Assembly (NCBI RefSeq): GCF_030684315.1
Contig: NC_081366.1
Span: 30,480,078-30,544,077, forward strand
Direction: 5' to 3'
From: Stegostoma tigrinum
Lineage: Eukaryota
DNA length: 64,000 bases
Both the position numbers and the translations under genes were made by a program. Below, in pieces: positions 3,890 through 64,000 of this stretch (positions within the stretch are counted from its first letter, which is position 1; the number at the start of each line of letters is the position of its first letter). Below the pieces are notes generated by a model. It was given only the letters and a program-made list of their open reading frames with translations. It was not told where the DNA came from and searched no databases.

Positions 3890-6800
3890 AGATAAAAGAA
3901 GCAAGATACAACAAGTGCTGGAAGCCTGAAATAAAAACAGAAACTGCTATAGAGAACCTCAGCAAGTTTGGCACTGTCTATGAACTGAGAAAAACACAGC
4001 TAGCTTTTTGAAATAGCAAGGTGTAGAGCTGGATGAACACATCAGGCCAAGCAGCATCAGTAGAGCAGGAAAGCTGACGTTTCAAGCCTAGATCCTTCTT
4101 CAGAAATGGGGGAAGAGGAAGGCAGATCTGAAATAAATAGGGGGAGATGGGGAGATAGAAGATGGATAAAGGAGAAGATAGGTGGAGGGGAGACAGATAG
4201 GTCAAAGACGTGGGGGTGGAACTAGTAAAGGTGAATGTAGGTGGGGAGCTAGGGAGGGGATAGGTCAGCCCAGGGAGGACGGACAGATCAAGAGGGCGGG
4301 ATGAGGCTTGTAGGTAGGAGATGAGGGTGGGGCTTGAGGTGGGAGGAGGGGATAGGTGGGAGGAAGGACACGTTGGGGGGCCGGGGACAGTCTGAGCTGG
4401 TTTTGGGATGTAGTTGGGGAGGGGAGATTTTGAAGCTTCTGAAGCCCACATTGATACCATTGGGCTGCAGGGTTCCTGAGCAGAATATGAGTTGCTGTTC
4501 CTGCAACCTTCTGGTGGCATCATTGTGGCACTGCAGGAGGCCCATGATGGACATGTTGTCTGAGGAATGGGAGGGGGAGTTAAAATGTTTTGCGACTGGG
4601 AGGTGCAGTCCGAGCATAGGTGTTCTACAAAGCGCTCCCCAAGCCTCTGCTTGGTTTCACCAACGTAGCGGAGCCCACATTTGGAACATCAGATACAGTA
4701 ATACCACATTAGCAGATGTGCAGGTGAACATCTGCTTGATGTGGAAGGTTTTCTTGGGGCCTGGGGATGGGGTGAGTGGAGGGGAGGTGGTGTAGGGACA
4801 GGTGTGGCACTTCCTGCAGTTACAGGGAAAAGTGTCAGGTGTGGTGGGACTGGTGCAGAGTGTGGAGCGGACAAGGGAGTCACGGAGAGCGTGGTCCCTC
4901 CGGAAAGCAGATAAAGGTGGGGAGGGAAAATGTCTTTGGTGGTGGGGTCGAATTGCAGATGGCGGAAGTGTCGGAGGATGATGCATTGGGTGGTGCAGGG
5001 TTGGGGAACGATGAGGTTGGTGGGGTGGTATGAGAGGATGAGGGGGATTCTGTTTGATTGTTATTGCAGGGAGGGGGTGTGAGGGATGAGTGGTGGGAAA
5101 TGCGGGAGACATGCTTGAGGGCATTCTCAACCACCGAGGGGGTTAGTTGCAGTCCTTGAAAAACGAGGACATCAGAGATTTACGGGAGTGGAATGCCTCA
5201 TTCTTGGAGCAGTTGTGGTAGAGGTAAAGGAGTTGGGAATAGAGGATGGCATTTTTGCAGGAAGGTGGGTGAGAGGAGGTGTATTCTAGGTAGCTGTGGG
5301 AGTCGGTGGGTTTGAAACGGATATCATTTTCCACATGGTTGCCAGAGATGAAAACAGAGAGGTCCAGGACGGAGAGAGAGGTAACAGAGATGGTCCAAGT
5401 GAACTTAAGGTTGGGGTGGAAGGTGTCATTTAAGAGACTGCTGGACATGCATATGGTCACAGAAATTTGAGGGTGCATACATGAGGATCAATGGTCGGCA
5501 CAACATTGTGGGCTGAATGGCCTGTTCTGTGCTGTACTGTTCTATGTTCTATGTGTCGGTGAAGTGGATGAACTGTTTGAGCTCCTTGTGGGTTTAAGGG
5601 CCATTGTAGGTAAGGGAGTGGGATTGTTCCACGTAACCTACAAAGAGGCAGGCATAGGGGCCCATGTGTGTACCCATGGCCACCCCCTTTGTCTGTAGGA
5701 AGTGGGAGGAATTGGAAGATAAGTTGTTAAGGGTGAGGACGAGTTCAGCTAAGTGGATGAAAGTGTCATTGGATGAGGACTAGTCGGGCCTGCAGGACAT
5801 GAAGAAGCGGACGGCCTTTCGGCCATCTATATGGGGAATGCAGGTGTGTAGGGACTTTACATCCATGGTAAAGATGAAGTGTTAGGGATCGGGGAATTGG
5901 AAGTTCTGGAGGAGGTGGAGGGCGTAGGTGAAGTCCCGGACGTAGGTGGGGATTTGCTGGACCAAGGGGGAGAAAATGGAGTCGAGATAAGTAGCGATAA
6001 GTTTGGTGGGCCAGGAGCAAGCGGAGACAATGAGTCGACCAGGGCAGTCAGGTTTGTGGATTTTGGGAAGGAGATAGAAGCGGGCGGTGCAGGGTTGGGG
6101 AACGATGAGGTTGGAGGCAGTGGGTGGGACGTCACCTGAAGTGATGAGGTTGTGGATAGTTTGGGAGATGATGATGTTTTGTTGGTTTTGGGTGGGGTCA
6201 CGATCAAGGGGGCGGTAGGAGGAGGTGTCAGATTTTTGAGTCTGGTCCGACTTGTTCGGAAGAACAAATAAAGGACAAGTGGTGGGATAGAAAGAAGGGA
6301 TAGAGTCAGAGCGAAGGGGTGTGTGGGGCGGACGCAAGAATCCAAAGGGACATCAGTACCTGAGTTTTGTGTTCCTTAATAGCTGAAAGGAAAGGGAAAG
6401 GTTTTCTTGTTCAGGCATCAAATGAGACAAAGAATGAAATGGAACTGGAGACCAGGACAGCTAAAAATTGGTGATGGTGCTGATGGAGGGAGAGGCGGAG
6501 AATGGTGCGTGGCACCAAGTGTGAATCTCGGAGTGGCATGGGAACAGCTGACCAAGCTGCATTGTATGTCATACAGTAACTGTAATCCTGAGTACATCAG
6601 GAACTTGAAAATTGGAACCTGGGTTGAAAGCTGCGCTAGGCAAGGTGGAACCAGAGACAGTCACTGAGGAGGGAGATGTGGCCGTGAAAGCAAGTTTTGG
6701 TGAACACTTCATGAAACACCAGGAGGGAGATAGAAAACAATGAATGTGAACAAACCTAAACATTAAAATCAAAGTCCTCTGGAGAGAAAAGCAGAGTGTC

Positions 6801-6965
6801 TTCAAACATAGCTGAAGAAGAAATGGCAGTGAATTAAATACTTAAATAAAAGCAAAGTTCTGCAAATCCTGGAGATGTGAAATAACTAAGTGCTGGAGAA
6901 ACACAGCAGGTTCAGAGCGAGAAACAGAGGTAATGTTTCAAGTCTGTTGTGACTGTTTTTCAGTA
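3890..6965 (-). mobile_element. Disrupted Penelope-like retroelement (RT and GIY-YIG endonuclease)
   Basis: Minus-strand peptides FYLLPKIHKPDCPGRLIVSACS, GVAMGTHMGP (~5660-5690), KPTDSHSYLEYTSSHPPSCKNAI and CTSANVV...YVGETKQRL. Terminal repeat at ~4015-4105. Confidence 0.88.
5428..5552 (+). mobile_element. Young, severely 5'-truncated CR1 3' end inserted in the Penelope-like element
   Basis: Ends in (TTCTATG)n and is flanked by GTGTC at 5423-5427 and 5553-5557. Near-identical to ~49075-49200. Confidence 0.85.
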
Positions 6966-14223: not shown

Positions 14224-14833
14224 GTAAGACATCCATCTGCATGCAGCTTCACAGCAGGCTCCCAACAAACTACCATGATCACATTCTGAGACAAAGGGCT
14301 GTCCAGCACTTTTCCTGTTGAACAAGCAGATTACATTGATTCATTAAATATCGAGTTGATAGAAAAATTGTGGGGAATTGGCTTTGCTGTGAATGATGTG
14401 ATCATGTTACAGTTGTCTAGAATTGAATATTAGAAGGTTAGCAAAACAGTGTGGATGAAAGTTTTCTCTGTAACCTGTTGGACTTTTTTTACAAATTCTG
14501 TTCTTTGCATGACAAATATATTCATGAGAATTAAATGACACGAAAGATGCAACAGAGCTCTCTCATCTCTGAATCTGATAAAGTCTTTTTGCTCAGTTGG
14601 TTACAAATGTCCAATTTGAAATGAATGTGGATAGTCTTAACCACCCTGCCCCTTTCCCCCTGAGAATGAGGGAACTAATCTGCCCTTGATTTGACAGCAA
14701 CTAGCTATCTCATTCAGACACCAAAGAAGTGGCTAATGTCGCAAAAGAGATTGACGCAGTATTGTTACTCTTCTGAGGTTTAGGATTAAGGCCTACTGTT
14801 GGGAGAGCAGAAGAAATCTTCCTCTGAATTTGT

Positions 14834-15065
14834 TAATACAGTGTGGAGCTGGAGGAACACGCAGCTCAGGCAGCATTAGAGGAGTAGGAAAGGCAATGCG
14901 TCGAGTTGGGACCCTTCATTAGCCGATGTTTTCAGGATTGATGAAGGGTCCCAACCTGAAACGTTGACTTTCCTGCTACTCTGCTGCCTGACCTGCTGTG
15001 TTCCTCCAGCTCCACACTGTATCGACTTCGAATTCCAGCATTTGCAGTTCTTGCTGTCTCCCTCT
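14834..15065. mobile_element. Palindromic Penelope-terminus-derived mini-element
   Basis: Inverted arms of about 80 bp, with a perfect 25-nt match between 14836-14860 and 14998-15022. Homologous to 4015-4105. Flanked by CTCTGAA(T/C)TTGT at 14822-14833 and 15066-15077. Confidence 0.8.
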
Positions 15066-15669
15066 CTCTGAACTTGTCTGGTCAGTATCTGTTTTGGGAG
15101 TGCTTGATGGGCACCCGTAATTATTACAGATTCATTTTATTTGCACAAACTTCCTTTGCTTTGATAAACACACAAATTAATTAGGAAGCAAAAGAACAAA
15201 ATTATTCTATGTATCTGCAATACCGTCTGCATCAGGAAGAAATGCAAAAGTGAGCTTGCACTGAAAGGCTAGTGGTTCTTACTTTGTTTAAAATAAGTCA
15301 TGCCCCATGGAGGTCCAAGCTCTTCTTATTTTGTCATTGCATATTTCTGTGATGGAGTGCCAGGACATTCGCACACATGCGGTGAACCCCTCTTCATTGC
15401 CATAAGGCATCACTGCACATTTGTTTGATCTTTCTGCTGAAATTATGTTCTACAGATTCTAATTACAACAATTTCAGAAAGACTGTGGGTGCTTTATTAT
15501 CAGTTAGAGTAATTGGCTAGAAAAATGACACAAAATGAGCCGGAGGAACTTGTGCATTGCCTGGATACTGTAAGGACTGTTGCCATCAAATGTAGTCAGT
15601 TCAGCTGAGATGGTGGGAATGCGTCTCGAATGATAATATGAAATAAAACGAGCAATTGCCTGGGAAAAG

Positions 15670-16020
15670 AAAACCGCACTGTTTAGGAGCAGGAGTGGGC
15701 CTAATGGCCGTTCTTCCTGCTCTGCCACTTAAGATTTGATTGTAACCACAACACCACATTCTTGCTTCATCCTGCTAACCTTTAACCCTGTTTCTTACCA
15801 AGAATCTATCTATCTCTGCCTCTAAGATGTTAAAAGACTGTGTATTCATCACTTTTTGAGGAAGAGAGTTGCAAAGACACTCAACCCTCTTAGAGAAAAA
15901 TACAATTTTCCGGCTCTTTCTTAAATGGGCACCCATTCCCCTTCCACGTTCTTATGTTGTCATTACTGTTACTAGATTTGTCCACAAAAAGAAACATCCT
16001 TACCTCATCTTCAGTCAAAT
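15670..16020 (-). mobile_element. CR1 3' fragment
   Basis: ccaagaatctatctatctctgcc and a CR1 3' UTR in reverse orientation. Confidence 0.65.
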
Positions 16021-17250
16021 CACCTGCAGATTCATGAAAGAAAGCCAGCACAGATTTGCACATCCTGTTTCAACTAAATTGCTTCAGTTTTTTGATGAGA
16101 TAACAGGAAGGATTGGTGAAGGCAATGCTGTTGGTGTGATGTACATGGACTTCCAAAAGGCATCCAATTAAATGCTGCACAACAGACATAAGAACCACGT
16201 TAGAGCTTGTAGAATAAAAGGCGCATAACAATGTGCATGAGTGATAGGAATCAAAGAACAGTGGTTCATGGATGTGTATTTGGGCTGGAGAATGGTTTGT
16301 AGTGGAGGCCCGTAGAGATTAGTGTTGTTGGCCCCTCTCTTTCTGATTTCTCTTGTAGTAACCTAGATGCACAATTGAGTGTGCAGGAAACTATTTCAAA
16401 ATTTGAAGACAGGATAAAACTTTCAAGTATACTGAATTAGGGGAAAGTATTTATTTCACAACAGGTTGGTGGAATAAACAGCCAATGAGGTTTAATGCAG
16501 AGAAGTGTGAAGTGATTCATTTTTGTAGAAAGAGCGTAGTGTGACAATATGAAATAGAAGTGTAATTCTAAAGTGGGTCCAGAAACAGAGGCGCCTAGGT
16601 ATTTATAAATCATTAAAGATGGAAGGACATGCCAATAGAGTGGTTAATAAAATATAAAGCTTTACAAATAATGGAATACAGTACAAGACCAAGGAAGTTA
16701 TGTTAAATTTGCATAAAACTCTGTGTTTTGGCCTGAGCCGGAGTATCCGGTCACAACACCTAAAGAAGGATGTGAAGACAACGGAAAGGGTGCAGAAAAG
16801 ATTGACCTGGATGGTTCCAGGATGAGGAACCTATTGTCTAGAGAAGAATTGGAGATATTGGGACTGTTTCACCGGGAAAGAGCAAGTTAAAAGGAGATTG
16901 GATGGTGATTTTCAGAATCATGAGGAGTCTGGACAGAGTAGGTAGGAGAAAAACCTTTCATTCTTGATCCTTCCATCAATAGGAAAGGGCACATATTTAA
17001 GGTCATTGGAAAAGAAGCAGTGGCCACATGAGAAAAAGCTTTCTCACGCAGCAAGTGCTTAGATCTGGAAAGCACCGCCTGAAAGTGTGGTGAAGGCAGG
17101 TTCAATCAAGGTAGTCAGGAAAGGATGGATTATTTGAACTGGGAGAATGGGCTACCATGAAAAAGCAGGAGAATGCAACCAAGTAAGGTGCTCCTTCGGA
17201 GACCAGGCCCAGATATATTGCATTAAATAGCCTTCTGTGCTGTTATTTTT
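16020..17250 (+). mobile_element. Decayed CR1 LINE RT to 3' end
   Basis: LLQFFDEITGRIGEGNAVGVMYMDFQKA (CR1 RT), tttaatgcagagaagtgtgaagtgattcattt (FNAEKCEVIHF) and gtgcagaaaaga. Confidence 0.8.
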
Positions 17251-18173
17251 CTGTGTCTCCACCTTGAAGGCATTTCAGTTGCAAGTTTGAAATAATAAAA
17301 GAAGATTTAATTTCACAATCTTGAATCTGCAATTAAAGTATGATGTTAGGTAGTTAGGGAGCTTTGCCCTATATTTGATGTGTGTGTGTGCTATCTGTTC
17401 TGGAATTGTTTTCTGGTGATTCTTTGTGCTAGCATTAGCAGGAGACTACTTAGGGAAATTAGTATTTGCTTCATTAAAGGAATTAGTTGCTGTTGCTTCA
17501 GATATGAAATTATGTTAAATATAAACAAATAAGATTTACAGGAATAACTAAAACCAGAATGTGATACAAATGTACAATGAGTTAACTGTAATCTAAATGT
17601 TGATTGACCTGTCTGCATCTACAGTTTTACTGTTTTTATTTCCAATTTTTGTAAGTTCTGTTTTATTTCTTGAAAGCTACACTGTCTGTTAAAAGCAGTG
17701 CCAATTCTAGTTCGTGAAGTGATTGTCTTAATAGACAGGACTCATCTTCTGTCATTAAAAGTCAGACACCAATTAACTGAAGTTGATTCAGGTCTTTTAC
17801 AGTACCTGCATTGTGATTCACATTGCCAAACTTGAGTTACAATTCTGGTTGATAAACAGAGTAAGATAGAAAATAAGTTCTGTAATGATTGTACCAAACA
17901 TCACTGTGTAAGGCCACAAATTGAGCCTACTGAAGTCTTTGTCCAGTTCTCACCACTTAGCAGTTCACAGCATCACCCTGAATCAGATGTGTTATAATGA
18001 CTGAATCAAATGTGTTACAGCAAACAATCACGTGATATGGGCAGATCCTGAGGAAAGATTTGTGCTGTTATGGTAACAAAACAGGTCCTATGAATACATA
18101 AAAGGCAAGAAAAAATGCCCACAAATATTGCAAGCTCTCTCTCATTAAATTTTACTGTTTCAATTTGTTTTAG

Positions 18174-18290
18174 GTAAGTATAGGTTGCCCTGAGAAGATG
18201 GAACCCATTACAAAGGTGTCACACATTCCTGCTAGCAGATGGGCTCTGTCTTGTAGCCTTTGCAATGAACGGACTGGGACATGTATTCAG
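18174..18290 (+). CDS. JADE2: JADE2 exon: [39 protein letters not shown] (start of PHD2)
   Basis: Not in the ORF track; translated by hand. Acceptor tttgttttAG and donor CAG|GTCAGT. 117 nt (39 codons). Confidence 0.95.
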
Positions 18291-20412
18291 GTCAGTATGG
18301 ATATGTTTGTCTATTTTCAGTATTATTCTCCAACTACAATGTGAGTGTAATACCATTTGTTCTAAGAGGAGTTTAGGAGGTGATTAAAATGCCATGTTAG
18401 ACCTTGCCTGATAATTAACTCACTGCTTCTTTGTCTGAACCTTTGTTTTGGCTGATCGTAGACAGAGAATTTACATCTTTGTGGAAACTTGGAATGTAAT
18501 TGTCTTGGATTCTCCTAGTGGTGACAGTTTATTAAGGCTTTGAATGGCTGACTCATACAAACAATGCTCCAAATTAGATCCGCCTTCCCAGCCTAACCTG
18601 TGCAAAATTAGCTGATTTTAACCAAAGCAACTGTAAGAGGTTTGCAGGTTGACACAGCACTCCCAATTGAGGAAGAAGAAAATTCATCTCGGTTTCCACT
18701 ATTGATCTCTGCTGAACAATGTTTTCCAAATGTGCATCTTGTGGACTGAAGACAGAATCAGGCTTGCGATGTGATGTCATCTGTGGGCAAACAGTCCCCG
18801 GTGATCACTGTCTAAGCTCATATGTTACAGATTGTCTTTTACCCATAGACCACTGCTACTTGGAGAACTGTATCCCATTAGATTGCCAGGAGACAGGAGA
18901 AAATTGACAGGGGAGAAATGGAGGGATAAAAGCATAGACATAACAAAGTGAGACCCAGTTTAAAACTTGCATGCTGTGTTATTACGGGTATGTTTGCATG
19001 TTCTCACATTAAAGAAATTTCATGCTATTAAAGTTAATTGTAATAATTTTGGTTTTACTTTTACATGGAATTTGCAACCCAGAAACAGGTTTGGCCCAAC
19101 AGATCTAGTCTAGTGTTTGTGCTTTGTGTTAACATTCATAAATTTACCAATCTCCCACCAGGACTGTTAATAGCTTCTGTTTATTCGAAGATCTGTTATC
19201 GGATTGCACAGCAGTTAGGTTTGTTACAGAAGTTCAGCCGCTACTACAAGAGGAAAGCACAGCAACTTTCCCTCACACTACGTACTGCAAGCAACATAGA
19301 CGATGGCCACTAGTCACATATGCTATATCTTGGTGACTCAGCTTCTTAAAGTGGTATAGAATGTCCCACCTTACATTGTCTGGTCCAATCATCAGAATTC
19401 GTCTATCACTCTCTCCCTCGTTCATTCATCCAGCTTCATTTTAAATAGATCTATAGTAAACACCTAAGCCCCAATTATGTGGTCATAAATTTCACATTTT
19501 CATCTACCCTAGCACTGGCAATCCTGGGCTTTCTTACCGCAGTGAGCTATTCCTCAGGTTGGAACCGAAGTAAGGCTGTTGCTGTTCCACCAACAGAAGT
19601 GCAACAGGGCAGGACTTAGCTACAACAGACAGTTGCAAATCCTCAAGATAATATTATTGGCCTATTTAGAATGGCTAGCCCTGTAGGATGCTTCAGAAGA
19701 ATGGGATTGCTTCAATGAAATGAAGTTTGCAATTCCTTAAATATTGGGAAAAGGCTTTTCCTATTTTTCAGAGTTTGAAGCTTAACCAGCCGGCTTTTCT
19801 CCTCTTCTCCAAAGGGTGGTGAGGGGCCACAGTTATGTTCATTGTTAGCTTAATTTTGCAACTTGTTAGGGGATGTTATCCAAAGCTATAATTGATGGAA
19901 CGTCTGGCAAAGCCCTGGAACCCCTGAGAAGCATTATGACAGAGGCTTTTGAGTGGATCGAAGATAAACAGTTTCTGATCAGGTTCAAAAATCCGAATTG
20001 AAAACATATCCTTTGGATGAAGTAGCATTAAAAACAGATGGAACAATTTTATGCCAATTGTTTGCAGCTACATTTGCCATTTGATTAAATTGGCAAGCTG
20101 TTAGCCTCAAACAGTTTACTTTTAATATCCTCAGATGTTAGTACCAAAGGGTAAAATAGTTCAGTGTGTAAATCCCACAAAGACTGATTTTTGTTTCCCT
20201 TATAGTCTGTGGTTTAAAGTTTTAAACCATACTTAACACCACACACCCCATATTGAAGCTGTACTGTCATCATCAGAAAATGGGGTCACCTTGGAAGTAA
20301 AATCGAAAAACATAAACAGAATAAAATGCTGCAGGCTTTTGTTCCCTTTTGAAGTATTCTTAATAAGAGTATCATTATACTGATGAGTATTTACTTTTAT
20401 TCCTCATTCTAG

Positions 20413-20931
20413 TGCTCAATGGCTTCCTGTATAACAGCATTCCATGTGACATGTGCATTTGACCATAATTTGGAAATGAGGACTATTCTTGCAGAGAATG
20501 ATGAAGTCAAGTTTAAGTCCTATTGCCTGGATCACAGCAGCACTATCACCAATTCCTGCAGCAAACGGGACGAAGCCATGAGCAAATTAAATGAGGCACG
20601 GCAGCTCTCTGCAACCACTGAAGGGATGGTGGAGGTGAATCAGAGCGAGTGTGACTTGGAGAAAGCAAGCCTGAGGAAACAGAAGCTGCAACAACTTGAG
20701 GAGGAGTTCTATGAACTGGTAAATCCCTCCGATGTGGCCCAGCAGCTACAGATGTCTGATGTCCTGGTGGATTTTTTCTATCAGTACTGGAGACTCAAGA
20801 GAAAGTCGAATTTCAACAAGCCGCTGCTGGCTCCAAAAACTGATGAAGTGGACAATCTTGCCCAGCAAGAACAGGACATCTTATACCGGCGACTGCGGCT
20901 CTTCACACATCTTCGACAAGATTTGGAGAGG
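20413..20931 (+). CDS. JADE2: JADE2 exon: rest of PHD2 and the ING/MEAF6-binding region ([16 protein letters not shown]...[11 protein letters not shown])
   Basis: Acceptor attctAG|TGC and donor AGG|GTGAGT. 519 nt (173 codons). [15 protein letters not shown] is JADE2-type. Overlaps ORF 20419..21012. Confidence 0.96.
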
Positions 20932-23619
20932 GTGAGTGTGAGCTTTAAAGCTAATTACACCTCCTCCAGATTACTGTTGAGTCAGTGGTCACTTGGTTAT
21001 ATTATTTTCTAATCCTTAACATTATTGTATGGACATTTTTGTGCTTGAAGGACACACAAAAGTACAATAGTTAGTACCAACTTCATCTGCAAACGTACAT
21101 CAAGTTGAACCTGTTCCAAAAATTGAATAGAAATTATTAATGAATATCAGTGATTACTCCAATAGAGTGCCTTCATACTCATGGTTATGATATGCACAAT
21201 CACATTGGTAACTAGGGGAAATGTAAGAGAGCTTTGGGCATATGAACATCTTTGTTCCCCATCCAACTGTGGCTGAAAACTGGTGTATGTGGAATTGGTG
21301 AAATGATCCATTTTCTCTGTCATTTTCACATTAACCTGGTAAAACAGTGTTTGGTATCACAAGAAAGATTGTCTAGTTTCTGTATCCCATGGCCATCTGA
21401 AAATAATAGTCCTTTACAGATTGGGAGTTACCTCAATTATTTAATATTAAACATACAACTTCCTAACGAAATTGTGAATAGTGAATTACAAACATTCAAG
21501 AAACACTGCCTGTTTCCAGGGAGAACCTTCATCACCTTCTTTTAAAAGTTAATTTGGTTCAGTTGGCAACAGGCAAGCAACAATGAAACAGGACAATGAT
21601 CTGTAAGTATTGGCAGTCACTCGCAACTATCTGTTAGTCTCACTCCCGCTGAGTGGGTTAAAATTTGACTGAATCTGTTTTTATCGCTGTGGCACTACAC
21701 ACAGGTAGACTCTCTAGGCCTTTCTTTGTTCATCCTTTCACAGTCTGATTTTTGTTTTGTCGTCATTATCTTTGCTTGTAGCTTTTTTTCTTCTATTCAT
21801 TCTCACTCACTGCCCTATCTCTAGATTTCTCCTATTGTTTTAAACTTTGTCTCATCTAAGTTTCACAACTCCTGTCTCCTTCTGATTTTGTCTCTCTCTC
21901 TCCTATCCACAACCTTTTTTATCAGTCAGGCGATCTCCTTCAGATTTTTCCATCACTGCTGTAAGATTGTTAGAATTGTACCCATTTACACAAGTCAGAG
22001 AGATTTTCAATATGCTTTTAGCAAAGCTGCAGCAGATTAACAGGATAAGTGCAGAGAAAATTATTTCTTTGTGGTTGACTGTATGAGATTGTGAAACCAC
22101 GTCTACCTAAGTGAAGAGTATCTTGTGTAAAAAATGTTTTATGTTGGGTATTAGTGAACTAACACTGAAGACGTGAGAGTGTGAATAATAATTCACTGAT
22201 ATTTGATTCTTTGACAGAAAGTTCAGGTTACAGGCTGCTTGTGGAATTTGTGTTCTCACCTGCTTTTAGTCAGTTGCCCAGTTACCGCTCTCAGCAGCAG
22301 TTATTGGCTTGGCACAAAGAGGAAAAGAGTCAAATTTGTATCAGCTAACCACTAACTTTATTAGTTTAGTGAAAGTAGACATACAATTCACACTGTTTTG
22401 TTTAAAAAAAAGGTTAACAGCAGGCATGCAATCCATCCAAGACTAAAATCTATGTCCACACATTCTAGGTTTCTCTGACGCTGTCTAAACAGTCAAAGGA
22501 TTTAAAAGCTAATAGCCAAGAATAAGAGCTCCCACTGGTCAGGCAGTCTCCATGCTACCAAGCACGAAGATTGTTCTCTGGAGTTTTTGCTGCTGGCACC
22601 CTTGAAATCCAAAACTGTAATGTCTTTTCTTTGGTTCTTACCCCATCTGGCGAGCCTGTGCTTTTCCTTATAGGCTCGTTCCAAGGCCACTGTTAAGATT
22701 ACCTCAGTACTGTTCCACCAAATAAGGATTTGCACCTATGTCATTCCTCTGAGCTGAGCCAGTTCAAGCCAGCCCAAGTCAGTGGCTAGGGGCTCAGGTA
22801 ACTTCAGTTCACACGGTGCTGTTTTTAATGTGTGAGCAGCACTGGGTTGACAAGTCCATTGGGTAATTTTGCTGTTTGAAAGAGTTTGTACTCAAAGCTC
22901 TTGAATTCTATCTGCGTTTCTGTTTCTTGATTCATTTTCTTGCCTGGTTTCCAGATTCGAGAGAGTTAAACTTGCACAATGGCAGGAAAAGTTAACCTTT
23001 GCTCCATAGCACAAGTGAATCTGTTTTGCCAATCGTTTGTAAATTTCTGACTTTGGACTATTTTTAATATCAATATTCAAGAACACTCAGTTCAAAATGT
23101 CACTGAGCCACATAGACCAAAAAATGACCCTAGTTCAATCCCTGATGCTTGTCAAGTGTAATTTGATTTAAGCTTGGCTAAGAGTGGAAGCAATGCAGTC
23201 ATAACCAGTGTCCCTGACAAAGTGTTCCAAAAAATCATAAGGATACCCTGCTTTCAAGTGTACACAAGTGGGCATTGAGTGAAAGACAGCTTCTGTCTCA
23301 GTTGCATTGCCCCATAATGTTGACAAAAGATCTTAACTTGACAAAATATCAGAGAGTTTCCAGAACCTCTGAATGTGCAGCCTAATTTAGGTCAGTAACT
23401 TCAGAACGAAAGAGGTAAGAAGAGAAAGCTGTAGGCTGACTAAATGGGAGGGAATATGGAGTGAACAGAAATATAGACTTTGTTTCAGTAATCAGTGACT
23501 GTTAAACTAATCCCCATTGACCTATTGCAGATTTTATTGTTCTTTTTGCCTTCCCTTTCTCCGAGAATCTTAGTGGGACCTAACATCTTTGCTTCTTTAT
23601 TCCTGATGACTTGAACACA

Positions 23620-24300
23620 ATAGACAGCTTGGAAGCTAAGAAACAATCATATAATCATCAAACCCTTTCTTTCAAAGACACCACATCCTGTACAGTTATC
23701 ATGCGTCAGTGACTCATAAGAACGCTACAGAAATCTCACCAGCAGCGGCTCCATCACATCGCCTCCAGGTTTATTGGGAAGACCAGCAAATGCTAACGTG
23801 GATCTTGACGTCACCTCTAAGTATTCAAGTAAAAGTCCCGCAAGTCGTTTTCGATGGACTGGACATTGTGTCTGTGTGGTTGAAAATTGTCCCCATCAGG
23901 TTCTTTCCAGTCAACTTTTAAACAGCCAGGACAGGATAAAGTCCCTGAACCTCTCCTTAAAGTGCAGAGCATTGACGCTAATAATTGGGAAATGCTTGCT
24001 ACCATTCATTCACAAAGGTAATATCTGCCCATCAAGCTTTATCACATTTTCGAATTTGCACCTTAATGTCGAGGCACAGAAATGACAGAGGAAGAAAGAA
24101 AGGAAAGGAAACAATTCTTGCCACATGCATCCCCTATCTCATTGTGCCCCCATGTTTCTAATGATCGACGAGTTGAAAATTAGACTGATCAGCCATGAGG
24201 AGACATATGATATATCCCAAGGACCCCATAGCCCTTAACTTGAGGAACCAGCCGACGACAAATCTTGCCAGCTGGCCATTCGATTATTACCGTCTGTCAC
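23620..24300 (+). mobile_element. RTE-clade LINE 3' fragment
   Basis: LQVYWEDQ, RFRWTGHCV, PHQVLSSQL and SLKC resemble the RTE C-terminus (ILQI.WED, LRW.GHV, PKQ.LYSQL). Confidence 0.6.
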
Positions 24301-25439
24301 AACAGTGAGTGACCCCCATCCCCTGCCATCCTGTTGTTTTTGATTTTTGCTTGTTGGACTTAAGATGAGGGGGACAAACTTTACATGGCGTTCTGGTCTT
24401 ACCACATTTCAAATTGAGTTTACAGTAGGGGACATCTGAGCACCTAATTGCCCATTGCGAGTATATACCATTAAATCAGAAAAACAATGCGGGGAACTGA
24501 TGGTGTAGTGGTAATGTCACTGTACTAGTAATCCAGGTGCCTAGGCTAATCTGGGGCAGTGCATTAAAATCTACTAATGGAATTTAAATTCGACTCACTC
24601 AGTTGATTAGTTCAGAAAATGTGGACCCTGGCTTATGTGCTACCCTAGACTCATGGCACCCCATTGAAATCTTCTCTGAGGCCCCAGTGGTTGGTCCACT
24701 AGCAGCCTCTGAAATTTCAGATTAAAATTAATTGTGAATTTAATGCTGCAGATTGAACCCCAAATATAAACGTATGAGGACTTGACTGGAAGGCAATCAA
24801 CTGCAGTACCGAGAAGTGGGACGCAATTAGCGGGACTACATTTTGCCTTCATATCTGGGCACGTGTTTGAAATTGAACCAGCCTTGCTGCTCCACGGATA
24901 GTATAGCTCTATCTGAAATGAGTTGCACAGCCTCGAGCCTGTTCTCAAAAGGCATCGCCAACAGTACACTGTTGAGGTGAATTTGGCAACACACCGCAAG
25001 CTGTGATGAGGATTCCTTGTGTGGGCACAAAACTGTTTTTTCCGTAGCTAAAGCTATGCATGTTACTACAGTAACAACTTACTTCTTCCTTGTTCTTGCC
25101 TGTGAGTCTTATTGTGTTGTTGATATCAATAATGTGATCTTTGTTGTACCATTGTCTCAGCTGCATGTATTTATATACCTGAGACAAAGGTACAAAAAGG
25201 CTAAGTTAAGATACCAACAACATAGTAAGATACTCGGGAATTTTATGAACAAGAAATCTATCTAATTTCCCTCTAAGACTCAACCTGTAGCCTGTTCTCA
25301 TGTTGCAATACTCTGTGTCTCTTTGATCAAGTCTTTTTCTTGTACCCTGGTTCCTGACGTGTGCAAAACAAAATAAGCTTTTACTTCTTGTCTCATTCTA
25401 ACAAAACCTAATATTCATATTTTGCCTTTAATAAAATGC

Positions 25440-26640
25440 CTAAGCTGCTCCACAGGAGTCTTGGAAGATAAAGTTATACAGCAACCATAAGGTGATATTG
25501 GGCCTTAAAGGAGGGAAAACCGTAATGAATCATTGGTAGAATTCCAGAAATTTGGGTCTTGCAGATTGAGGACACAGTCATCAGTCATGGAGCAGTTAAA
25601 ATGTGTAATGCTGAAGAGGTCAGAATTAAATGTGTGGATAAGCTGGAGGGTTGTGGAGCTGGAGATTCAAGATAGAGGAGGTAGAACTCATGAATGATTT
25701 GTAAACAAGAATGTGAATTTTTAAAATCAAGCTTGCAAGAACAAGAGTGATTGGTGATTAGGTCTTGGTGTGAGTTAGGACACTGACTGCAAAGTTTTCG
25801 ATGACATCAAGTTTACAGAGAATGTGCAATACTAAATAAAAATTAAAAGAACTGCGGATGCTATAAGTCAGAGACAAAAATAGAAATTGCTGGAAAAGCT
25901 CAGCCCAAAGTGTTAACTCTGATTTCTTTCCACAGATGTTGCCAGACTGGCTGAGCTTTACCAGCAATTTCTATTTTTGTCACAGAATGTGCAAGACCAG
26001 ACACAATCGCTTTGGGATAGTCAAGTCGAAAGAAGTAACAAATGGATCAGTTAGAGTTGCAGCAACAGAGACAAGGGTGATAGAAATAGGTGATATTAGC
26101 GATGGTGGTCTCAAGCTCATTTCAAATATGACACCAAGGTCACAAACAGGAGAAAATAACTTCACTTTTTCCTAATTATTAGTTGTGGGAGATTCCTGTT
26201 CATCCAGTACTGGATGTAGGAGAAGCAGCCTGGAAATTTAGCATGACTGTCGGAATCAAAAGTGGTGAGAATGAGGTAGAGTTGAGTGTTGCCAGTGCCC
26301 ATGTGAAAATTAGTGCTTTGTTTCCGGTTCATGTCACTGAGAGACGACATATGGATAAAAAATAAGGGGGAGAAACTTGGGAGCACTGAAGGTAACTATC
26401 CAGGAGCAAAATGAGAAGCCTTGCAGGTGATGTTCTTGCTATTGTGAGGTGGTTAACATTGAAAGCAGTTGAGTGTGGTCTCACCCAGTGAACTGATCAT
26501 GGAGAGACGTCGAAGGAGTGTGGAAGGAGTCAGGTCAGTGGTTTCAGAGTTTGCAAACTGGTCAAGATGGGCGAAGAATCTCTCAAAAGGCTAGAAACCT
26601 TTGTCACAATCACATAAGATGTCGTTGATAAGCAGATTAG
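25440..26640 (-). mobile_element. Decayed L2-clade LINE RT to 3' end
   Basis: Minus peptides FHMGTGNTQLYL (degenerate FHMYADDTQLYL), CFSYIQYWMNRNLPQL, VCDLGVIF and FVTSFD. Confidence 0.7.
25830..25983. mobile_element. Hairpin Penelope-terminus-derived mini-element within the L2
   Basis: 33-nt inverted repeat (25873-25905 vs 25949-25981, 1 mismatch). Perfect 11-bp direct repeat AGAATGTGCAA at 25819-25829 and 25984-25994. Confidence 0.75.
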
Positions 26641-27129
26641 ATGAACTTTGTATCTGTTGTTTGTGTGACAAGATCCTATTTCTCATCACATAAAATAAAT
26701 TCATGCAAGCCATCATTTTAAAAGAATGTTGATTTGAGATTAATTCCCAATGCTACAGCTCAACTCTTCAGCTGCTTCTGCTGCCAGTGGGGCTTAGATT
26801 TGAGTGCAGCTTTGCCTAATTGCTGGTGTGAAATGCTGAGGAAATTCTGTGCCAGTTTTTGACATAACTAGTAAAACTAGTTATGTTCAGCAAGCAAAAC
26901 ACACTAAGCATGGGCTGAGTGCTTAATGGCTTTTGTGAGAAACTGGTTTATTTCTGAGCAGTGACATTCCTTACCTTGGTGAATACTGATGCAGAGTAAT
27001 ATGTAAGTAGCCGGCTGGTCATACAGAATTGCTGGAAAAAAAAGATACATTTTATCATAGCATTTTGTCTTGCACTCATCAGGACAATTTGAAATACCAA
27101 TACAAAGAGAAAAATGACATCTGTGCTCT

Positions 27130-27750
27130 GTGGGAAAGGAGTTGTAATTGTTTAGTAAGTGCACCCTAATCCAAAAGGGCAATGGCAAGTTGGTGGAGTG
27201 GATATTTGGGTGGTGGATGAGGTTAAAGTATGACGTCATGCACGTTGGTAGAAATATTATTGGAAGACTGTATAAAATAGAGGATGCAATTCTAAAGGGA
27301 CTGGAGAAGCAGAGGGAGCTTCGTGTATGGGTGCGCAGATCATTTAGGTTGGCAGGCTAGGTGGAGAAACCAGCTCATAAATCATACAGTGTCTTCAGCT
27401 TTGTTAATATGAGTATAGAATCCAAGAGTAAGGAGGTGATGTTTTACTTGTGTAAGACACTTATTAGACTCAGCTGGAGTACTACATATTGGAATTGTGG
27501 GTGCCACGTTGGACGAAGGATATGAATGCATTGGAGAGGGTGTAGAGGAAATTTACATGAATGGTTCCAGGAAAGAGAAACTTCATTTATGAGGATCGAT
27601 TGTGAAGAAGTTGGGACTGTTGTCCTCAGAGAGAGGAAGGCTGAGAGGAGATTCGATAGAGGCTTTCAAAATCATGAGTGGGCTGGGCATTAGATTGAGA
27701 GAAGCAGCTCCTGTTTGTTAACAGCTTCAACCATGGTTAACAGAAGAAAT
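27130..27750 (+). mobile_element. CR1 LINE fragment
   Basis: VMHVGR...ILKGLEKQRELRVWV, cagctggagtac and aggctgagaggagat. Confidence 0.72.
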
Positions 27751-27759
27751 TGGGAGCGT

Positions 27760-28780
27760 ATTAGAAGGTGAAGGCCTAAGAAGTTGCAAAGAAAGAATTA
27801 AGACTGAGAATTGGGAGGAGTTTAGAATTCTGCAAAAGAAAGCTAAGGAAAAGAGTTACAAAGAGAAAATGAGAGTAAAAAGTGAGAAATACATAACCTA
27901 ACTGTTAAAGCTGCGTGCAGAACATACAAATGAAAAGGTTAGCTGAAATAATTCATGCAGCATCAGGCAAACCTATAATGGGGAACATTGAAATGGCAGC
28001 AAAACTGATAAATACTTTACTCTTAGTTCTGCAGAAGGGTCACCGGACTCAAAACGCTAACTCAGTCTTTTCCTTCATGGATGCTGCCAGACATGTTGCG
28101 CTTTTCCAGAAACTTTGTTTTTGTTCCTGATAAATACTTTATTTGTTTTCGTGGAGGAACCACTCAACAAAAACTGTAGAGAATCTAAGAGCTAAGATAT
28201 TAACATTAGTTAAAACAGGTAAGGAAATTAATGGGACTTGAAGTGCATAACTCCCTTAGGCCTGATGATCTGTATCCCAGATTGTGGATGTGGCTTTCGA
28301 GATAATAGATGATAGTCCACTTTCAAAATGCTTTAGCCACGTGGAATCCAGTGAATTCTGAACTATTCTGGAGTTCTGAAATGTTGGCCCCTATTTCAAT
28401 AGAGTTGGAGTGTAAGAGGAGGGAAGTCACACTGCAGCCGTACAGTATGCTGGCCAGACCATGTTTGGGGTACTGTGAGCAGTTTTGGTCCCCATATTTA
28501 AGGAAAGATGTCATTTCATTAGAGGCAGTTCAGAGAAGATTCACTAGGCTGATCGCTGGTATGGAGCATTTGTCCTATGAGCAAAGGTTAAGCATGGTGG
28601 GACTCCATTTGCTGGAATCTAGAAGAAGGAGCGGTGGTCTCATTGAAACATGTAGGATTCCGAAGGGGGTTGACAGTGTAAATGCTGAGTGGATATTTCC
28701 CGTCACGGGAGAGTCTAGGACTGGTGATCATGGCCTCAGAATAAAGGGTCACCGATTCAAAACTGAGATGTGGAGGCAGT
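27760..28780 (+). mobile_element. CR1 LINE pieces; the last is interrupted by the Rex1 element and resumes at ~30560
   Basis: ORF 28309..28809 reads ARPCLGYCEQFWSPYLRKDVISLEAVQRRFTRLIAGM...FKTEMWR. Confidence 0.8.
28020..28126 (+). mobile_element. Solo Penelope-terminus mini-element with a decayed hammerhead motif
   Basis: Perfect 15-bp direct repeat CTGATAAATACTTTA at 28005-28019 and 28127-28141. Homologous to the reverse complement of 31965-32065. Confidence 0.78.
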
Positions 28781-30550
28781 GCCCGAGAGTCAGTATCGGA
28801 CCAAATTAAAGGCCTAAACCAGCCAAAAAGACTCCCGACGCCTGTTGCAAAGCTTAAACAACATAATGAGATATAAAACAAAGAACAGCAAGACAATGGA
28901 CAAAGACACAGCCCTCCCCGTTGCTCTCAATGCCTTCTATGCTCATCTCAAGCAGAATACCAGCAGTGTGGTATCACCTGCTCTGAGAGCCCTGTACGTA
29001 CCTGTTCCCTCTGTTCCCACTGTAGATGTCAGATCAGTCCTCCTGGGAGTCAACCCATGGAAAGCGATGGGCCTGGAAAGGGTTCCCAGCCCTGTGCTTT
29101 GATCCTGTTGGATCAGCTGGCATAGGTATTCACTGACCTCTTCACCTCTCCCTCCTACAAGCTGAAGTTCCTATCTCCTTCCAGAAGACTATCATCATCC
29201 CCAGAGCCAAGAAAAAAAACATAGTGTTTCTTAAAGTCTACCGACCACTGGCTCTGACCTCCATAATCATGAAGTGCTTCGAGACACTGGTCATGGTCCA
29301 TATCAACTTCAGGCTCCCACCCTGCTTCGATACCCTGCAGTTTACCGACTGACGTAACAGTTCCACAGTAGACGCAGTTTCCCTACCCTGTACTCAGACT
29401 GAACAACAAGGACACTTACATCAGACTCCTGCCACTCAACTACAGATCTACTTTCAACACCATTATCCCTACCAGATTGATCTCAAAACTCTGCGATGAA
29501 GGTCTCGGATCCTCAGCTTCTTGACTTATAGATAGCAATCAGTGAAGATAGACAACTGCACCTCCTCCACCATAACTGTCAACACTGGAGCCCCCCCCCG
29601 AAGTGTGTGTTCTTGGCCCCCTAGTGTACTCCTTATACACACACAGTGTGTCGCCAAATTCCAAATGAACGGCATCTACAAGTTTGCTGATGACACCACT
29701 GTGGTAGGACCGATATCAAACAATGATGAGTCAGAGTATAGAAAGGAGATCGAGGCTTGGAGACATGATGCAATGAGAACAACCTGTCTCTCTCTCTCAA
29801 TGTCGGTAAAACTGAAGAACTGATCATTGACTTCAGAAAGAACTGAGGAGAATATACCTCCAACTACATCAGTGGAGCAGAGCTGGAGAGGATTGAGAGC
29901 GTTAAGTTCGTCGGACATTTGATGACCAACAGTCTGTCCTGGACTTCCAATGTAGATGTGACAGTCAAAAAGGCACAACAAAGCCTCTTCTTCCTCAGGT
30001 GGCTCAGGAAATTTGGCATGTCCATAAGGTCCTTCACCAACTTTTATAGATACACCATTGAAAGCATACTGCCCGTGTGTATAATAGCCTGGTATGGCAA
30101 CTGCTGTGCCCAGGACTATAAGAAACCACAACGTGGTGTACACAGCCCAGACCATCACGGAAGCCCATCTTTCATCACTGAATGCCGTTTATACCTTTTG
30201 TTGCCGTGGAAAAGATGGACTCATCCCACCCTGGTAATGCTCTCCTACTACTTCAGGCTGAGGTACAGAAACTTGAGCACACGCACCAGCAGGTTCAAAA
30301 ACAGCTTCTTCCCTGCTGTTATTAGGCTGATGAATGGATCTCTCTAACTTCAAGTAATGTTGACCATCATGTTAATACTGTTATTGCTTCACACATGTCC
30401 TGTGCAGTGTAATCTGCTTGCTTCGCTCTGTCCAAGGTTTTTATCACCTTATGATCTATATGTCCTTGCTTACTATGACCTGCCTGTACTGCTCGCAAAT
30501 AAAGCTTCACACTGTACACAGTGGTACACATGACAATAAATCAAGTCATC
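28780..30550 (+). mobile_element. Rex1/Babar-clade LINE, 5'-truncated and frameshifted
   Basis: LNAFYA, LTSIIMKCFE, NTGAP, IYKFADDTTVVG, LSWTSNVDVTVKKAQQSLFFLRWLRKFGM and TSRFKNSFFPAVIRLMN. The 3' UTR ends aataaatcaagtcatcatc. Confidence 0.9.
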
Positions 30551-30559
30551 ATCATCAGA

Positions 30560-30810
30560 TTGCATTTATTTTGTTCGGAGGGTTGAGTCTTTGGAGTTCC
30601 TATCCACAGAGGGCTGTGGGGGTAGAGTTCTTGTGTATATTTAAGACCAAGATAAATAGATTCTTGATTAGGAGGGGAATCAGTGGTTACAAGGAAAGGG
30701 GAAGAAAGTGAACATTGGGAATATCGGATCAGCCATGAATCAGCGAAGGGTGGAGCAGGCTCGATTAGCCAAATGGCCAATTCCTGTTCCGATTTCTAAT
30801 GGTCTTATTT
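30560..30810 (+). mobile_element. CR1 3' end (continuation of the element split by Rex1)
   Basis: LWSSYPQRAV...IFKTKINRFLIRRGISGY followed by a CR1 3' UTR. Confidence 0.75.
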
Positions 30811-30859
30811 CACCTACTCCATCCAGTTTCTCTGCAGTCACTGCCTTTAAAGTCTTGGA

Positions 30860-31490
30860 TGCAACCCATCAAGTCCTAGCAATTTGTCTGCCTTTGGTTC
30901 TATTAAATTGTCAAATGCTTTGTCTTCCATGACAGAAACTGTAACAAGCTCATTCTGGCCATGAACACCATGCTTCTCTGATAACTTTGAGTGTTACTAG
31001 CATTTTCCACTTTGAAGACTGATGCAAAGTTTTGATTTAAATTATCTGCCATTTCCCTGTTTCTTGCTGTAAGTTCCTTGCCTGAATCATCCAAGGGCCC
31101 CACACTTAGTTTAGCGACTTTTTTCTATGAACCCATAGAAGCTGTTGCTGTTTGGTTTTAGATTTTTTTGCTAATTTATTTTTGTTATCAATTTTCTACC
31201 TCTTATTAGCTTTTTAATTACCCACAGCCTGTTCCTAAAAAGATGTCAAATCCTCTGACATATCCACTAGCTTTCACTACTTTATATGCCTATGTTTTTG
31301 ATTGGATGCTTTCCTTGATCACCTTTGTTAACCGTGGGCCTTTCATCTTTCTCACAGTGCCCTTTTTGACGAGAATAAACTTTTGCTGACCTTTATGAAG
31401 TATCTGCTTAATTATCTGCCATTGCTCATCCACTGAGTTTCCCATTATTCTATTTCCCAACTGTACACAGCTCTTTCTTCATAGCTGTCA
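30860..31490 (-). mobile_element. CR1 LINE internal fragment
   Basis: Minus peptide GPLDDSGKELTARNREMADNLNQNFASVFKVE. Confidence 0.7.
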
Positions 31491-31961
31491 GTTTACAGGT
31501 GACACAAACCTAGATGGGACTGAGAGTTGTGAGCAGGATGCAAAGCTGCTTCAAGGAGATTTCGAAAGGCTAAGTGAGCGGACAAAAATTGGGCAGATGG
31601 AATAGCGTGTGGAGAAATCTGAGTTTTTTAACCTTGGCAGGATATGGAGAAATACAGATACGTTCTTGAATGATGGGAGGCTGCCTTCTTGAAACACTGC
31701 AATCCATTTGGTGTAGCTAAGTCCAGGATTTTGACCCTGGCCTGCACTTTTGGTCACAGTACTTGCATAACTTGTTCAGTTCAGTTTCTGATTGTTCGAA
31801 TCCTCCAGAATGTTGATCGTGCAGTATTTAGTGACGGTAGTGCCATTACATATAAAGGAGCAATGGTTAGATTCTCTGTTGCGCATGGAAATTTGGACAT
31901 AGACCGCTTCGGTGTCTGAGCTGTCACGAGCAGTGCTGAACTAGCAAACATCCCCACTTCT

Positions 31962-32090
31962 GAAACAAAAAGAATATTGCTGGAAAAGCACAGCAGGTCT
32001 GGCAGCATCTGTGAGGGATAAAAGAGCTAACGTTTCGGGGTCCAGTGACCCTTCCTCAGAACTCCCCCCACCTCCCTGACAGACTGTGCC
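31962..32090 (-). mobile_element. Penelope-terminus mini-element with a well-formed hammerhead motif
   Basis: ttgctggaaaagcacagcaggtctggcagcatctg...aacgtttcggggtccagtgacccttcctcag. Homologous to 4015-4105. Confidence 0.75.
32024..32064 (-). ncRNA. Minimal type I hammerhead ribozyme motif (predicted)
   Basis: Minus strand reads GAGUU CUGAGGA A GGGUC-ACUG-GACCC C GAAA C GUU AGCUC. Core boxes, stem II, palindromic ACGU stem III and stem I (GAGUU/AGCUC) are all present. Confidence 0.6.
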
Positions 32091-39030: not shown

Positions 39031-39147
39031 CTGTGTAGATTAGGCAGGGTATATGGGTATGGGTCTGGGTGGGATGTTCCAAGGTTTAGTGTGGACTTGT
39101 TGGGCCAAAGAGCCTGTTCCCACACTGTAGGGATTCTGTGATTCTGT
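39031..39147 (+). mobile_element. HE1/V-SINE 3' tail fragment inserted in the Penelope-like element
   Basis: gggtctgggtgggatg...gtgtggacttgttgggccaaagagcctgttcccacactgtagggattct matches the tail at ~46920-47005. Confidence 0.7.
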
Positions 39148-39232
39148 AAAGCCGCAAGTGAGGTAACCCAGCTTAACGGACAATGAGTTTAAATACCAGG
39201 CGGGAAAACACAGCAGCGATTCATCGGAGGCT

Positions 39233-63504: not shown

Positions 63505-63615
63505 AAGAATAGTTTTGAGGAAGAGTCATAACAGACTCAAAACATGACTCAGTTTCTCATTCCATAGATGCTGCCATCCCTGCTGAGGTTCTCCGTCATT
63601 TTCTGTTTTTATTTA
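63505..63615 (+). mobile_element. Decayed Penelope-terminus mini-element
   Basis: ttgaggaagagtcataacagactcaaaac...agatgctgcc...tgctgag...ttctgtttttattt. Homologous to 28020-28126. Confidence 0.6.
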
Positions 63616-63944
63616 AAATATGTTAGATCCTGAACAAACTTACATTTGTAGGAAAAATCCGTCAGAAACTGTGCAACAATAGGTTATTGTTGGTTCAATT
63701 ATGTGCCTCTAATGCAAGTAAAATGCAGGAAATTCAGAGCTTTTCAGGACATGATTATTTAAAAGTCCTTTTTGGTAAAGTAGTAAAGTTGTACCTACAT
63801 TTGAAAATCATGCAGCCTTAGATGATAAAACTTGCTCACGTTAGGTGTCTTTTTGACTGTTTGATATATCATCCTCCCCTGAGCTTTCATGTCATCGCTC
63901 GTGTGTTTCTAAGTAGCTAAGCTGGGCTAACGTTATTATAGAGA

Positions 63945-64000
63945 TAACAAGGTGTAGACCTGGATGAACACAGCAGACCAAGCAGCATCATAGGAGCAGG
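63945..64000 (-). mobile_element. Penelope-like terminus, cut by the window edge
   Basis: caaggtgtagacctggatgaacacagcagaccaagcagcatca closely matches ~4017-4059. Confidence 0.75.

What the first reader, a model, noticed from the sequence alone, without database searches (positions are those of the whole stretch)
14822..32090. Family of ~100-230 bp noncoding, hammerhead-bearing mini-retroelements with 11-15 bp TSDs (retrozyme-like)
Seen: short units homologous to the Penelope terminus at 4015-4105 occur alone at 14834-15065, 25830-25983, 28020-28126 and 31962-32090. Further decayed copies lie at ~6840-6965, ~56285-56460, 63505-63615 and 63945-64000. Three have clear flanking direct repeats: 12 bp with 1 mismatch, AGAATGTGCAA (11 bp) and CTGATAAATACTTTA (15 bp). 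They have no ORF, tRNA head or poly(A). Most retain CTGANGA-A-stem-GAAACGT or a CpG-decayed version, with different stem II sequences that still pair (GGGTC/GACCC, GAGTC/GACTC). Inference: a high-copy non-autonomous system in which a ribozyme-containing RNA is mobilised by Penelope RT and GIY-YIG, as solo or fold-back units.
Basis: partly seen in the sequence, partly recalled or inferred. Interest (0 to 1): 0.7.

Follow-up and report, generated by a model that had tools for sequence, protein, structure and literature searches.

The report
Penelope terminal stubs, not retrozymes
These short hammerhead-bearing inserts are real and match the end repeats of abundant Penelope-like jumping genes; they are likely dead by-products of copying those genes rather than a separate ribozyme-driven element, although their fixed start point and one-tailed hairpins likely record how this class inserts.

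Summary
The units and three TSDs are real. They are not a separate family: each is the last 95-135 nt (hammerhead plus optional 33-nt tail) of Neptune-type Penelope-like elements with RT and GIY-YIG. In 125 evenly spaced 10-kb genome stretches, 5' ends of 338 arms run from -2373 to +51 relative to the hammerhead core; 72 extend more than 100 nt into the body. Short copies do not cluster apart from long ones and are not head-to-tail arrays. Of the four named units, one has an intact core and one has no core. In 87 of 90 fold-backs exactly one arm is tailed, and arm lengths are correlated. Best mechanism (inferred): both nicked target strands prime at two sites on one RNA and run off its 5' end, like strong-stop cDNA; occasional template jumps give longer copies and one-off tandem arrays. 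The layout is already described for this class. This scan noted the same thing before on other DNA, including this genome.

The parts
14822..14833 (.). Left TSD (12 bp, 1 mismatch) of the family A3 fold-back
14834..14917 (-). Untailed arm of the A3 fold-back (+5..+89 from hammerhead C3); core broken
14939..15065 (+). Tailed arm of the A3 fold-back (+1..+124); core TTGATGA...GAAACGTT with C3 changed to T; 21-nt spacer between the arms
15066..15077 (.). Right TSD
25819..25829 (.). Left TSD (11 bp) of the family B fold-back
25830..25904 (-). Tailed arm of the B fold-back (+66..+133); no hammerhead
25904..25983 (+). Untailed arm of the B fold-back (+19..+95); no CUGANGA
25984..25994 (.). Right TSD
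28005..28019 (.). Left TSD (15 bp, exact)
28020..28126 (+). Solo untailed family B terminus (-4..about +99, plus 5 extra 5' bases); core broken; 88% identical to the family reference
28127..28141 (.). Right TSD; its first 5 bases also match the element's continuation
31964..32063 (-). Solo untailed family B terminus (-4..+96); intact minimal hammerhead core with pairing helices I and II; no convincing TSD
4009..6352 (-). 5'-truncated, decayed Penelope-like element, family A2 (RT and GIY-YIG remnants, CT-rich 3' UTR, hammerhead at 4103-4076, untailed end)
63940..64000 (-). Solo untailed A2 terminus, continues to window-equivalent 64038
63511..63613 (+). Older B-like solo terminus (-4..+96, 76% to B), stem II GAGTC/GACTC, core broken, no TSD found
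6840..6965 (-). Decayed older terminus, no TSD found
3893..4003 (-). Decayed older tailed terminus abutting the 4009 element
56285..56420 (-). Heavily decayed older terminus, no TSD found

Best explanation
The units are solo or head-to-head copies of the terminal repeat (minimal hammerhead plus optional 33-nt tail) of Neptune-type Penelope-like retrotransposons, likely made when the element's enzyme nicks both target strands, primes at two sites about 33 nt apart just downstream of the ribozyme, and runs off the RNA's 5' end. Shown: identity with PLE termini, a continuum of 5' ends with a sharp peak at -7..0, two 3' ends, the one-tailed/one-untailed rule, correlated arms, about 14-bp TSDs, and ORF start lying 3' of both ends. 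Inferred: the peak is the transcript start, since position -4 fits an initiator motif in three families; the stubs are strong-stop-like cDNAs; longer copies need a jump from the RNA 5' end to a point further 3'; and the stubs are dead on arrival because they lack the ORF-start region that a related PLE needs in vitro.
For: Termini extend into RT and GIY-YIG coding sequence. A natural full-length copy, L187, has a 1073-aa ORF, an inverted pLTR and a 14-bp TSD; its Pfam RVT_1 (E 1.8e-5) and GIY-YIG (E 0.0018) matches are both below the curated cut-offs. 29 of 30 fetched family B body loci run into the B terminus. Of 338 arms in 1.25 Mb of evenly spaced sample: 72 start upstream of -100, 23 at -100..-8, 105 at -7..0, 137 at +1..+50 and 1 at +51. 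Simulated random truncations give no such peak: 38 true and 29 called in -7..0, of 599. 3' ends are bimodal, as for the two RT start sites of the anole PLE. 87 of 90 fold-backs have exactly one tailed arm, P 9e-23. Arm starts correlate (rho 0.60; both long in 16 of 87 against 3.5 expected). Paired arms share variants (39 against 15.7, 24 A1 pairs). Short A1 copies have short nearest neighbours less often than chance (0.13 against 0.41). The ATG lies at +166. Identical internal junctions occur in both arms at 4 loci and repeat in tandem at 2.
Against: The transcript start is inferred; no RNA ends were observed. The initiator and TCT consensus motifs are recalled, and A1 solo copies mostly begin at -3 (C at -4 in only 4 of 17). 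Older subfamilies have few long copies (starts upstream of -300: B 3 of 80, A3 2 of 31, against A1 41 of 141), so the clustering test has little power there. Only 26 of 157 single insertions had a detectable TSD. Core positions in short copies are slightly less mutated than controls (4.5% against 6.1%, P 0.08). Several ORF-start loci do not show matching starts: L160, L163, L169, L175 and L182 have unequal starts, and in L161 the inverted arm reaches further 5' than the junction. L178, L181 and L184 end away from the two usual 3' ends. Shared arm variants could also come from gene conversion.
Confidence: 0.75

Rival explanations
1. A self-propagating non-autonomous mini-element (retrozyme- or SINE-like): solo units are transcribed and copied in trans by Penelope proteins.
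For: Very high copy number; 191 of 247 insertions are 260 nt or shorter. Sharp 5' boundary. TSDs. Stem II differs between families yet pairs. pLTR sequences can act in cis for trans-mobilisation in Adineta. Vertebrate retrozymes are reported to derive from pLTRs.
Against: Continuum into Penelope bodies. No clustering of short copies. 88 distinct junction types in 90 fold-backs, and the two repeats are symmetric alignment overlaps. Full CTGANGA...GAAACGTH core in only 47 of 92 A1, 9 of 51 A2, 1 of 19 A3 and 9 of 38 B arms. Stem covariation is between autonomous families. The predicted cut site is at +28/+30, so the units are not cut-to-cut monomers.
Confidence: 0.1
2. Ordinary target-primed 5' truncation from the 3' end of tandem transcripts, with the -7..0 peak caused by RT stalling or repair at the ribozyme fold rather than by an RNA end.
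For: Long copies show a smooth truncation gradient. The peak coincides with the 5' edge of helix I. The anole study assumes multi-copy transcripts.
Against: A structural block would be expected at the 3' side of the fold, met first by RT (inference). It does not explain correlated arms, or equal starts of successive repeats at -6..+4 in 5 loci, or of inverted and direct arms in full-length copies (L187 -368/-360; L191 +1/-2).
Confidence: 0.12
3. Solo units arise at the DNA level by recombination between pLTRs of full-length copies, as solo LTRs do.
For: Suggested for some solo pLTRs without TSDs in Adineta. Many single copies lack a detectable TSD.
Against: The ORF-start region gave 102 first-look candidates against 3000 (likely a cap) for the terminus. 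Recombination cannot make the 90 head-to-head insertions with one tail each.
Confidence: 0.03

Closest known systems
Endonuclease-positive Penelope-like elements, Neptune/Nematis type (Craig et al. 2021, PMC8557442, passages read; Arkhipova et al. 2013, PMC3846280, passages read)
   Same: RT plus C-terminal GIY-YIG, DKG, CX4CxxC linker and two cysteines between the GIY-like and YIG motifs. pLTRs, heavy 5' truncation, an adjacent inverted copy, a 30-40-bp tail often at one end only, TSDs, solo pLTRs.
   Different: In the passages read the tail is 'often' one-sided; here it is so in 87 of 90 fold-backs. No fixed 5' run-off point is described there. The Adineta paper explains inverted repeats by self-priming on antisense RNA.
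Poseidon PLE of the green anole (Frangieh et al. 2024, PMC11167929, parts 1-2 of 4 read)
   Same: Hammerhead at the pLTR/ORF junction, two RT start sites that define the tail, both strands cut and extended, uncut RNA as main template, ORF-start sequence needed 3' of the start sites.
   Different: There the ORF begins at stem II; here the ATG is at +166, beyond the tail. Different clade. That paper does not assign one start site per strand or describe run-off stubs in the parts read.
Minimal hammerheads of metazoan PLEs (Cervera and De la Pena 2014, PMC4209133, parts 1-2 of 4 read)
   Same: Extra base before stem II, short helix I (2 bp in A, 4 bp in B), palindromic CG insertion for dimer formation, mostly single motifs ascribed to truncated PLEs.
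   Different: Sharks are not among the genomes discussed in the parts read.
Non-LTR retrozymes (Cervera and De la Pena 2020, PMC7229834, passages read; Li et al. 2026, 10.64898/2026.07.22.740005, parts 1-3 of 5 read)
   Same: Type I hammerhead, no coding, PLE-derived, TSDs longer than 4 bp when present. One locus elsewhere in the genome (L135/L156) is a 3-unit head-to-tail array of about 445 nt with a hammerhead in each unit.
   Different: Retrozymes are head-to-tail arrays, mostly with canonical hammerheads, expressed as circles. The window's units are single or head-to-head, with minimal and mostly broken cores.

Membership tests
EN+ Penelope-like element (terminal fragments) | Linked in cis to an RT + GIY-YIG ORF | tested here: met
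   Family A has a 1073-aa natural ORF. Family B has GIY-YIG in cis, and 16 of 30 loci hold matches reaching the YIDD region (contiguity not checked one by one; no full-length B copy recovered).
EN+ Penelope-like element (terminal fragments) | pLTR repeated upstream of the ORF, often with an inverted copy | tested here: met
   L187, L190, L191, L194
EN+ Penelope-like element (terminal fragments) | Optional 30-40-bp tail | tested here: met
   3' ends near +91-94/+124-127 (A) and +94-99/+130-133 (B)
EN+ Penelope-like element (terminal fragments) | Variable 5' truncation | tested here: met
   Starts from -2373 to +51
Neptune/Nematis clades | CX2-5CxxC linker between RT and EN | tested here: met
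   CNRRKCYTC in L187; definition
Neptune/Nematis clades | Placement in RT phylogeny | not tested
   No reference RT set was at hand; no tree built
Non-LTR retrozyme | Head-to-tail tandem monomers with a hammerhead in each | tested here: not met
   Window units are single or head-to-head. In the 125 sample loci one true array was recognised (L135); other same-strand neighbours within 500 nt were not inspected one by one.
Non-LTR retrozyme | Intact, active type I hammerhead | tested here: not met
   1 of the 4 named units has an intact core; cleavage itself was not assayed
Non-LTR retrozyme | Independent amplification as a non-autonomous lineage | tested here: not met
   No clustering of short copies in A1/A2; weak power in A3 and B. 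The L156 array junction was found only at its own locus among 40 scored of 160 candidates.
Non-LTR retrozyme | Expressed as discrete linear and circular RNAs | not testable with these tools
   Only contig-level runs were offered

The most novel reading that the evidence does not exclude
These stubs are a genome-wide fossil record of the unsolved PLE insertion cycle. A dimer primes each target strand at a different one of two sites at the front of one RNA. Run-off gives strong-stop stubs; transfer to the downstream repeat regenerates the pseudo-LTR, much as in LTR elements; jumps on short RNAs create head-to-tail hammerhead arrays in one step, the likely birth route of animal retrozymes.
Probability: 0.45. 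Interest if true: 0.6.

Novelty: new member of a known kind. Interest (0 to 1): 0.3.

Why it matters
As a family it is ordinary: PLE terminal stubs with passenger ribozymes. The value lies in the rules. How PLEs make pseudo-LTRs, inverted ends and one-sided tails is stated as open in PMC2377424 and PMC8557442 (passages read). The 87-of-90 tail rule, correlated arms and fixed run-off point give strand-specific predictions that the existing in vitro PLE system can test directly. With roughly 600,000 insertions extrapolated, these stubs also matter for repeat annotation and for avoiding false 'retrozyme' or hairpin-RNA calls.

Tried and rejected
Rfam scan: no hammerhead family at E<=5; minimal variants are presumably below the models. 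Pfam on window ORF fragments: no RT or EN hit. The top-30 genome hits were not used for end statistics because ranking favours query-length copies. Splicing as the source of 5' ends or internal junctions: rejected, no acceptor AG at the discrete starts in A1 and no shared exon upstream of solo copies. Cap-derived extra 5' G: no clear signal (B, G at -5 in 4 of 12). Ends at the predicted cut site: 4 of 259 A arms start at +28, not above the local background; 3 of 20 ORF-start loci have a segment starting at +28, a weak hint only. Selection on the core in short copies: inconclusive. RNA: no RNA holder listed. Contigs of four runs laid on 25500-28500 showed no empty site among the joints listed, 135 more not shown; these say nothing on expression or polymorphism. 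Circular RNA versus end-to-end jump on a linear RNA was not resolved: repeated identical junctions fit both, and L161 (two different 3' points) favours jumps. Literature: searches found no paper on twin priming, strong-stop transfer or a solo-pLTR family for PLEs; one search listed one review, not read; listings only. Dfam and Repbase could not be searched, and most subscription papers and bioRxiv supplements (Li et al. 2026 retrozyme tables, which include one cartilaginous fish) were not visible, so the families may already be catalogued.
Full report
Scope. I checked the named units, then sampled the window's own genome (G000, 3.2 Gb; window at C15:30480078-30544077). That the host is shark-like is my inference from the repeats and comes from no call. 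Positions such as -4 or +124 count from C3 of the hammerhead CUGANGA.

Observation. The four units and three TSDs are present. 14834-15065 is a fold-back with an untailed arm (+5..+89) and a tailed arm (+1..+124). 25830-25983 is a fold-back with a tailed (+66..+133) and an untailed (+19..+95) arm and no CUGANGA. 28020-28126 and 31964-32063 are solo untailed units starting at -4. Only 31964 has an intact core; 28020 and both 14834 arms are broken. The 31964 unit has no convincing TSD, and none was found for 63511, 63940, 6840 or 56285.

What the units are. Extension from the termini gave RT plus GIY-YIG coding bodies for family A, and a GIY-YIG body for family B. A3's body may be borrowed from A1/A2 in that procedure, since only 2 long A3 copies were sampled. 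29 of 30 fetched B-body loci (30 of 42 matches) run into the B terminus. Locus L187 is a natural full-length A1 copy: inverted arm, upstream pLTR, 1073-aa ORF starting at +166, downstream pLTR, 3612-nt unit and 14-bp TSD. Pfam gives RVT_1 and GIY-YIG below their curated cut-offs. Its CX4CxxC linker marks the Neptune/Nematis type; no tree was built.

End statistics. 125 evenly spaced 10-kb stretches on the large contigs (15 further requests did not exist) held 366 arms. I dropped 13 at locus edges and 15 under 75% identity, leaving 338. Starts: 72 upstream of -100, 23 at -100..-8 (0.25 per nt), 105 at -7..0 (13 per nt), 137 at +1..+50 (2.7 per nt), 1 at +51. Random truncations of 47 real long copies produce no peak. 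All four terminus types have long copies, though fewer in the older ones. 3' ends fall in two groups about 33 nt apart, the PLE tail. The arms form 247 insertions with usable flanks: 157 single and 90 head-to-head. TSDs were found in 57 of 90 fold-backs (controls 0-3) and 26 of 157 singles (controls 0-1 per class), including 4 of 32 long singles; median 14 bp, 65% AT against 58% (77 TSDs). Extrapolation gives about 630,000 insertions.

No independent short lineage. Nearest neighbours of peak-start copies are not preferentially peak-start copies: A overall 0.47 against 0.53; A1 0.13 against 0.41; A2 0.62 against 0.61; A3 and B underpowered. Some alleles are enriched in short copies, but these are A2/A3 subfamily markers also present in long copies; one (position 75) was seen in 7 short and 0 long copies. 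Fold-back junctions are 88 distinct of 90. Intact cores fall from 47 of 92 in A1 to 9 of 51, 1 of 19 and 9 of 38 in A2, A3 and B. Core sites are not clearly protected in short copies (37 of 828 against 283 of 4662, P 0.08).

Mechanistic rules. 87 of 90 fold-backs have exactly one tailed arm (P 9e-23); singles are split 73 tailed and 84 untailed. Arm starts are correlated (rho 0.60; both upstream of -50 in 16 of 87 pairs against 3.5 expected), and paired A1 arms share variants more than shuffled pairs (39 against 15.7). The anole PLE cuts and extends both strands, starts at two sites that define the tail, prefers uncut RNA, and needs ORF sequence 3' of the start sites. Here that region follows only the upstream pLTR and is absent from all stubs. 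I infer that priming happens at the front of the RNA, one site per strand, and that cDNA runs off the 5' end. Position -4 reads as an initiator in A2/A3 and B and as a TCT motif in A1 (consensus motifs recalled; sequence). Solo copies lose identity at -4/-5, and A1 already at -4.

Template jumps. Among 28 independent ORF-start loci (30 fetched of 44 matches, three from one locus), many join ORF-start sequence back to a pLTR position x. Five have x at -6..+4 in both repeats (L167, L170, L173, L174, L176). Four carry the identical junction in both fold-back arms (L156, L162, L180, L181), and two repeat it in tandem (L156, L164). In full-length or near-full-length copies with both an inverted arm and an upstream pLTR, the starts are -368/-360, +1/-2, -545/-354 and -354/-172. 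Against: L160, L163, L169, L175 and L182 have unequal starts; L161's inverted arm passes x; three loci end at unusual 3' points. L135/L156 is a real retrozyme-like array of three units of about 445 nt, but its junction was seen nowhere else among 40 scored candidates. Circle versus linear jump is unresolved.

Comparison. Solo and inverted pLTRs, one-sided tails, TSDs and single minimal hammerheads are described for PLEs. Retrozymes are defined by head-to-tail arrays and circular RNAs, which these units lack or which could not be tested. Searches found no paper with the twin-start run-off model; coverage is incomplete. Earlier notes of this scan reach the same reading on this and other genomes. 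I formed my reading before the first look-up, and those notes are not independent support.

Verdict. Real feature; ordinary class; not a retrozyme family. Interest 0.3, carried by the testable insertion rules.

Noticed in passing
L135:6768-8434 (G000:C13:10.007 Mb; also L156-L158): Young head-to-tail array of three units of about 445 nt (pLTR from -123 plus ORF start), with an inverted unit sharing the same junction; meets the tandem definition of a non-LTR retrozyme; junction not seen elsewhere.
   Followed up: partly
L156, L162, L163, L166, L177, L178, L181, L184: Arms coming from downstream stop between about +103 and +138, at or near the tail where the other strand would have primed; weak hint, biased by the probe used.
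   Followed up: partly
L101, L115, L117, L146, L182, L184: Secondary preferred starts near -88, and others near -123, -172 and -355; ORF-side junction points recur near +249, +283, +314 and +326.
   Followed up: partly
window 3893-4009: The A2 element's 3' end abuts an older terminus right at that copy's predicted cleavage region.
   Followed up: no
window 25108-25229: AT-rich 122-nt hairpin scoring 47 bits to MIR837, far below the gathering score of 117; likely a small inverted-repeat element.
   Followed up: no
window 38180-39310: Nested long inverted repeats (126, 93 and 47 nt arms); another fold-back insertion of unknown family.
   Followed up: no
window 5422-5554 and 49069-49201: 133-nt repeat at 98% identity, one copy inserted inside the Penelope element.
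   Followed up: no
window 20413-21012: Open frame with a PHD-like zf-HC5HC2H match; likely an exon of the host gene in whose introns several units lie.
   Followed up: no
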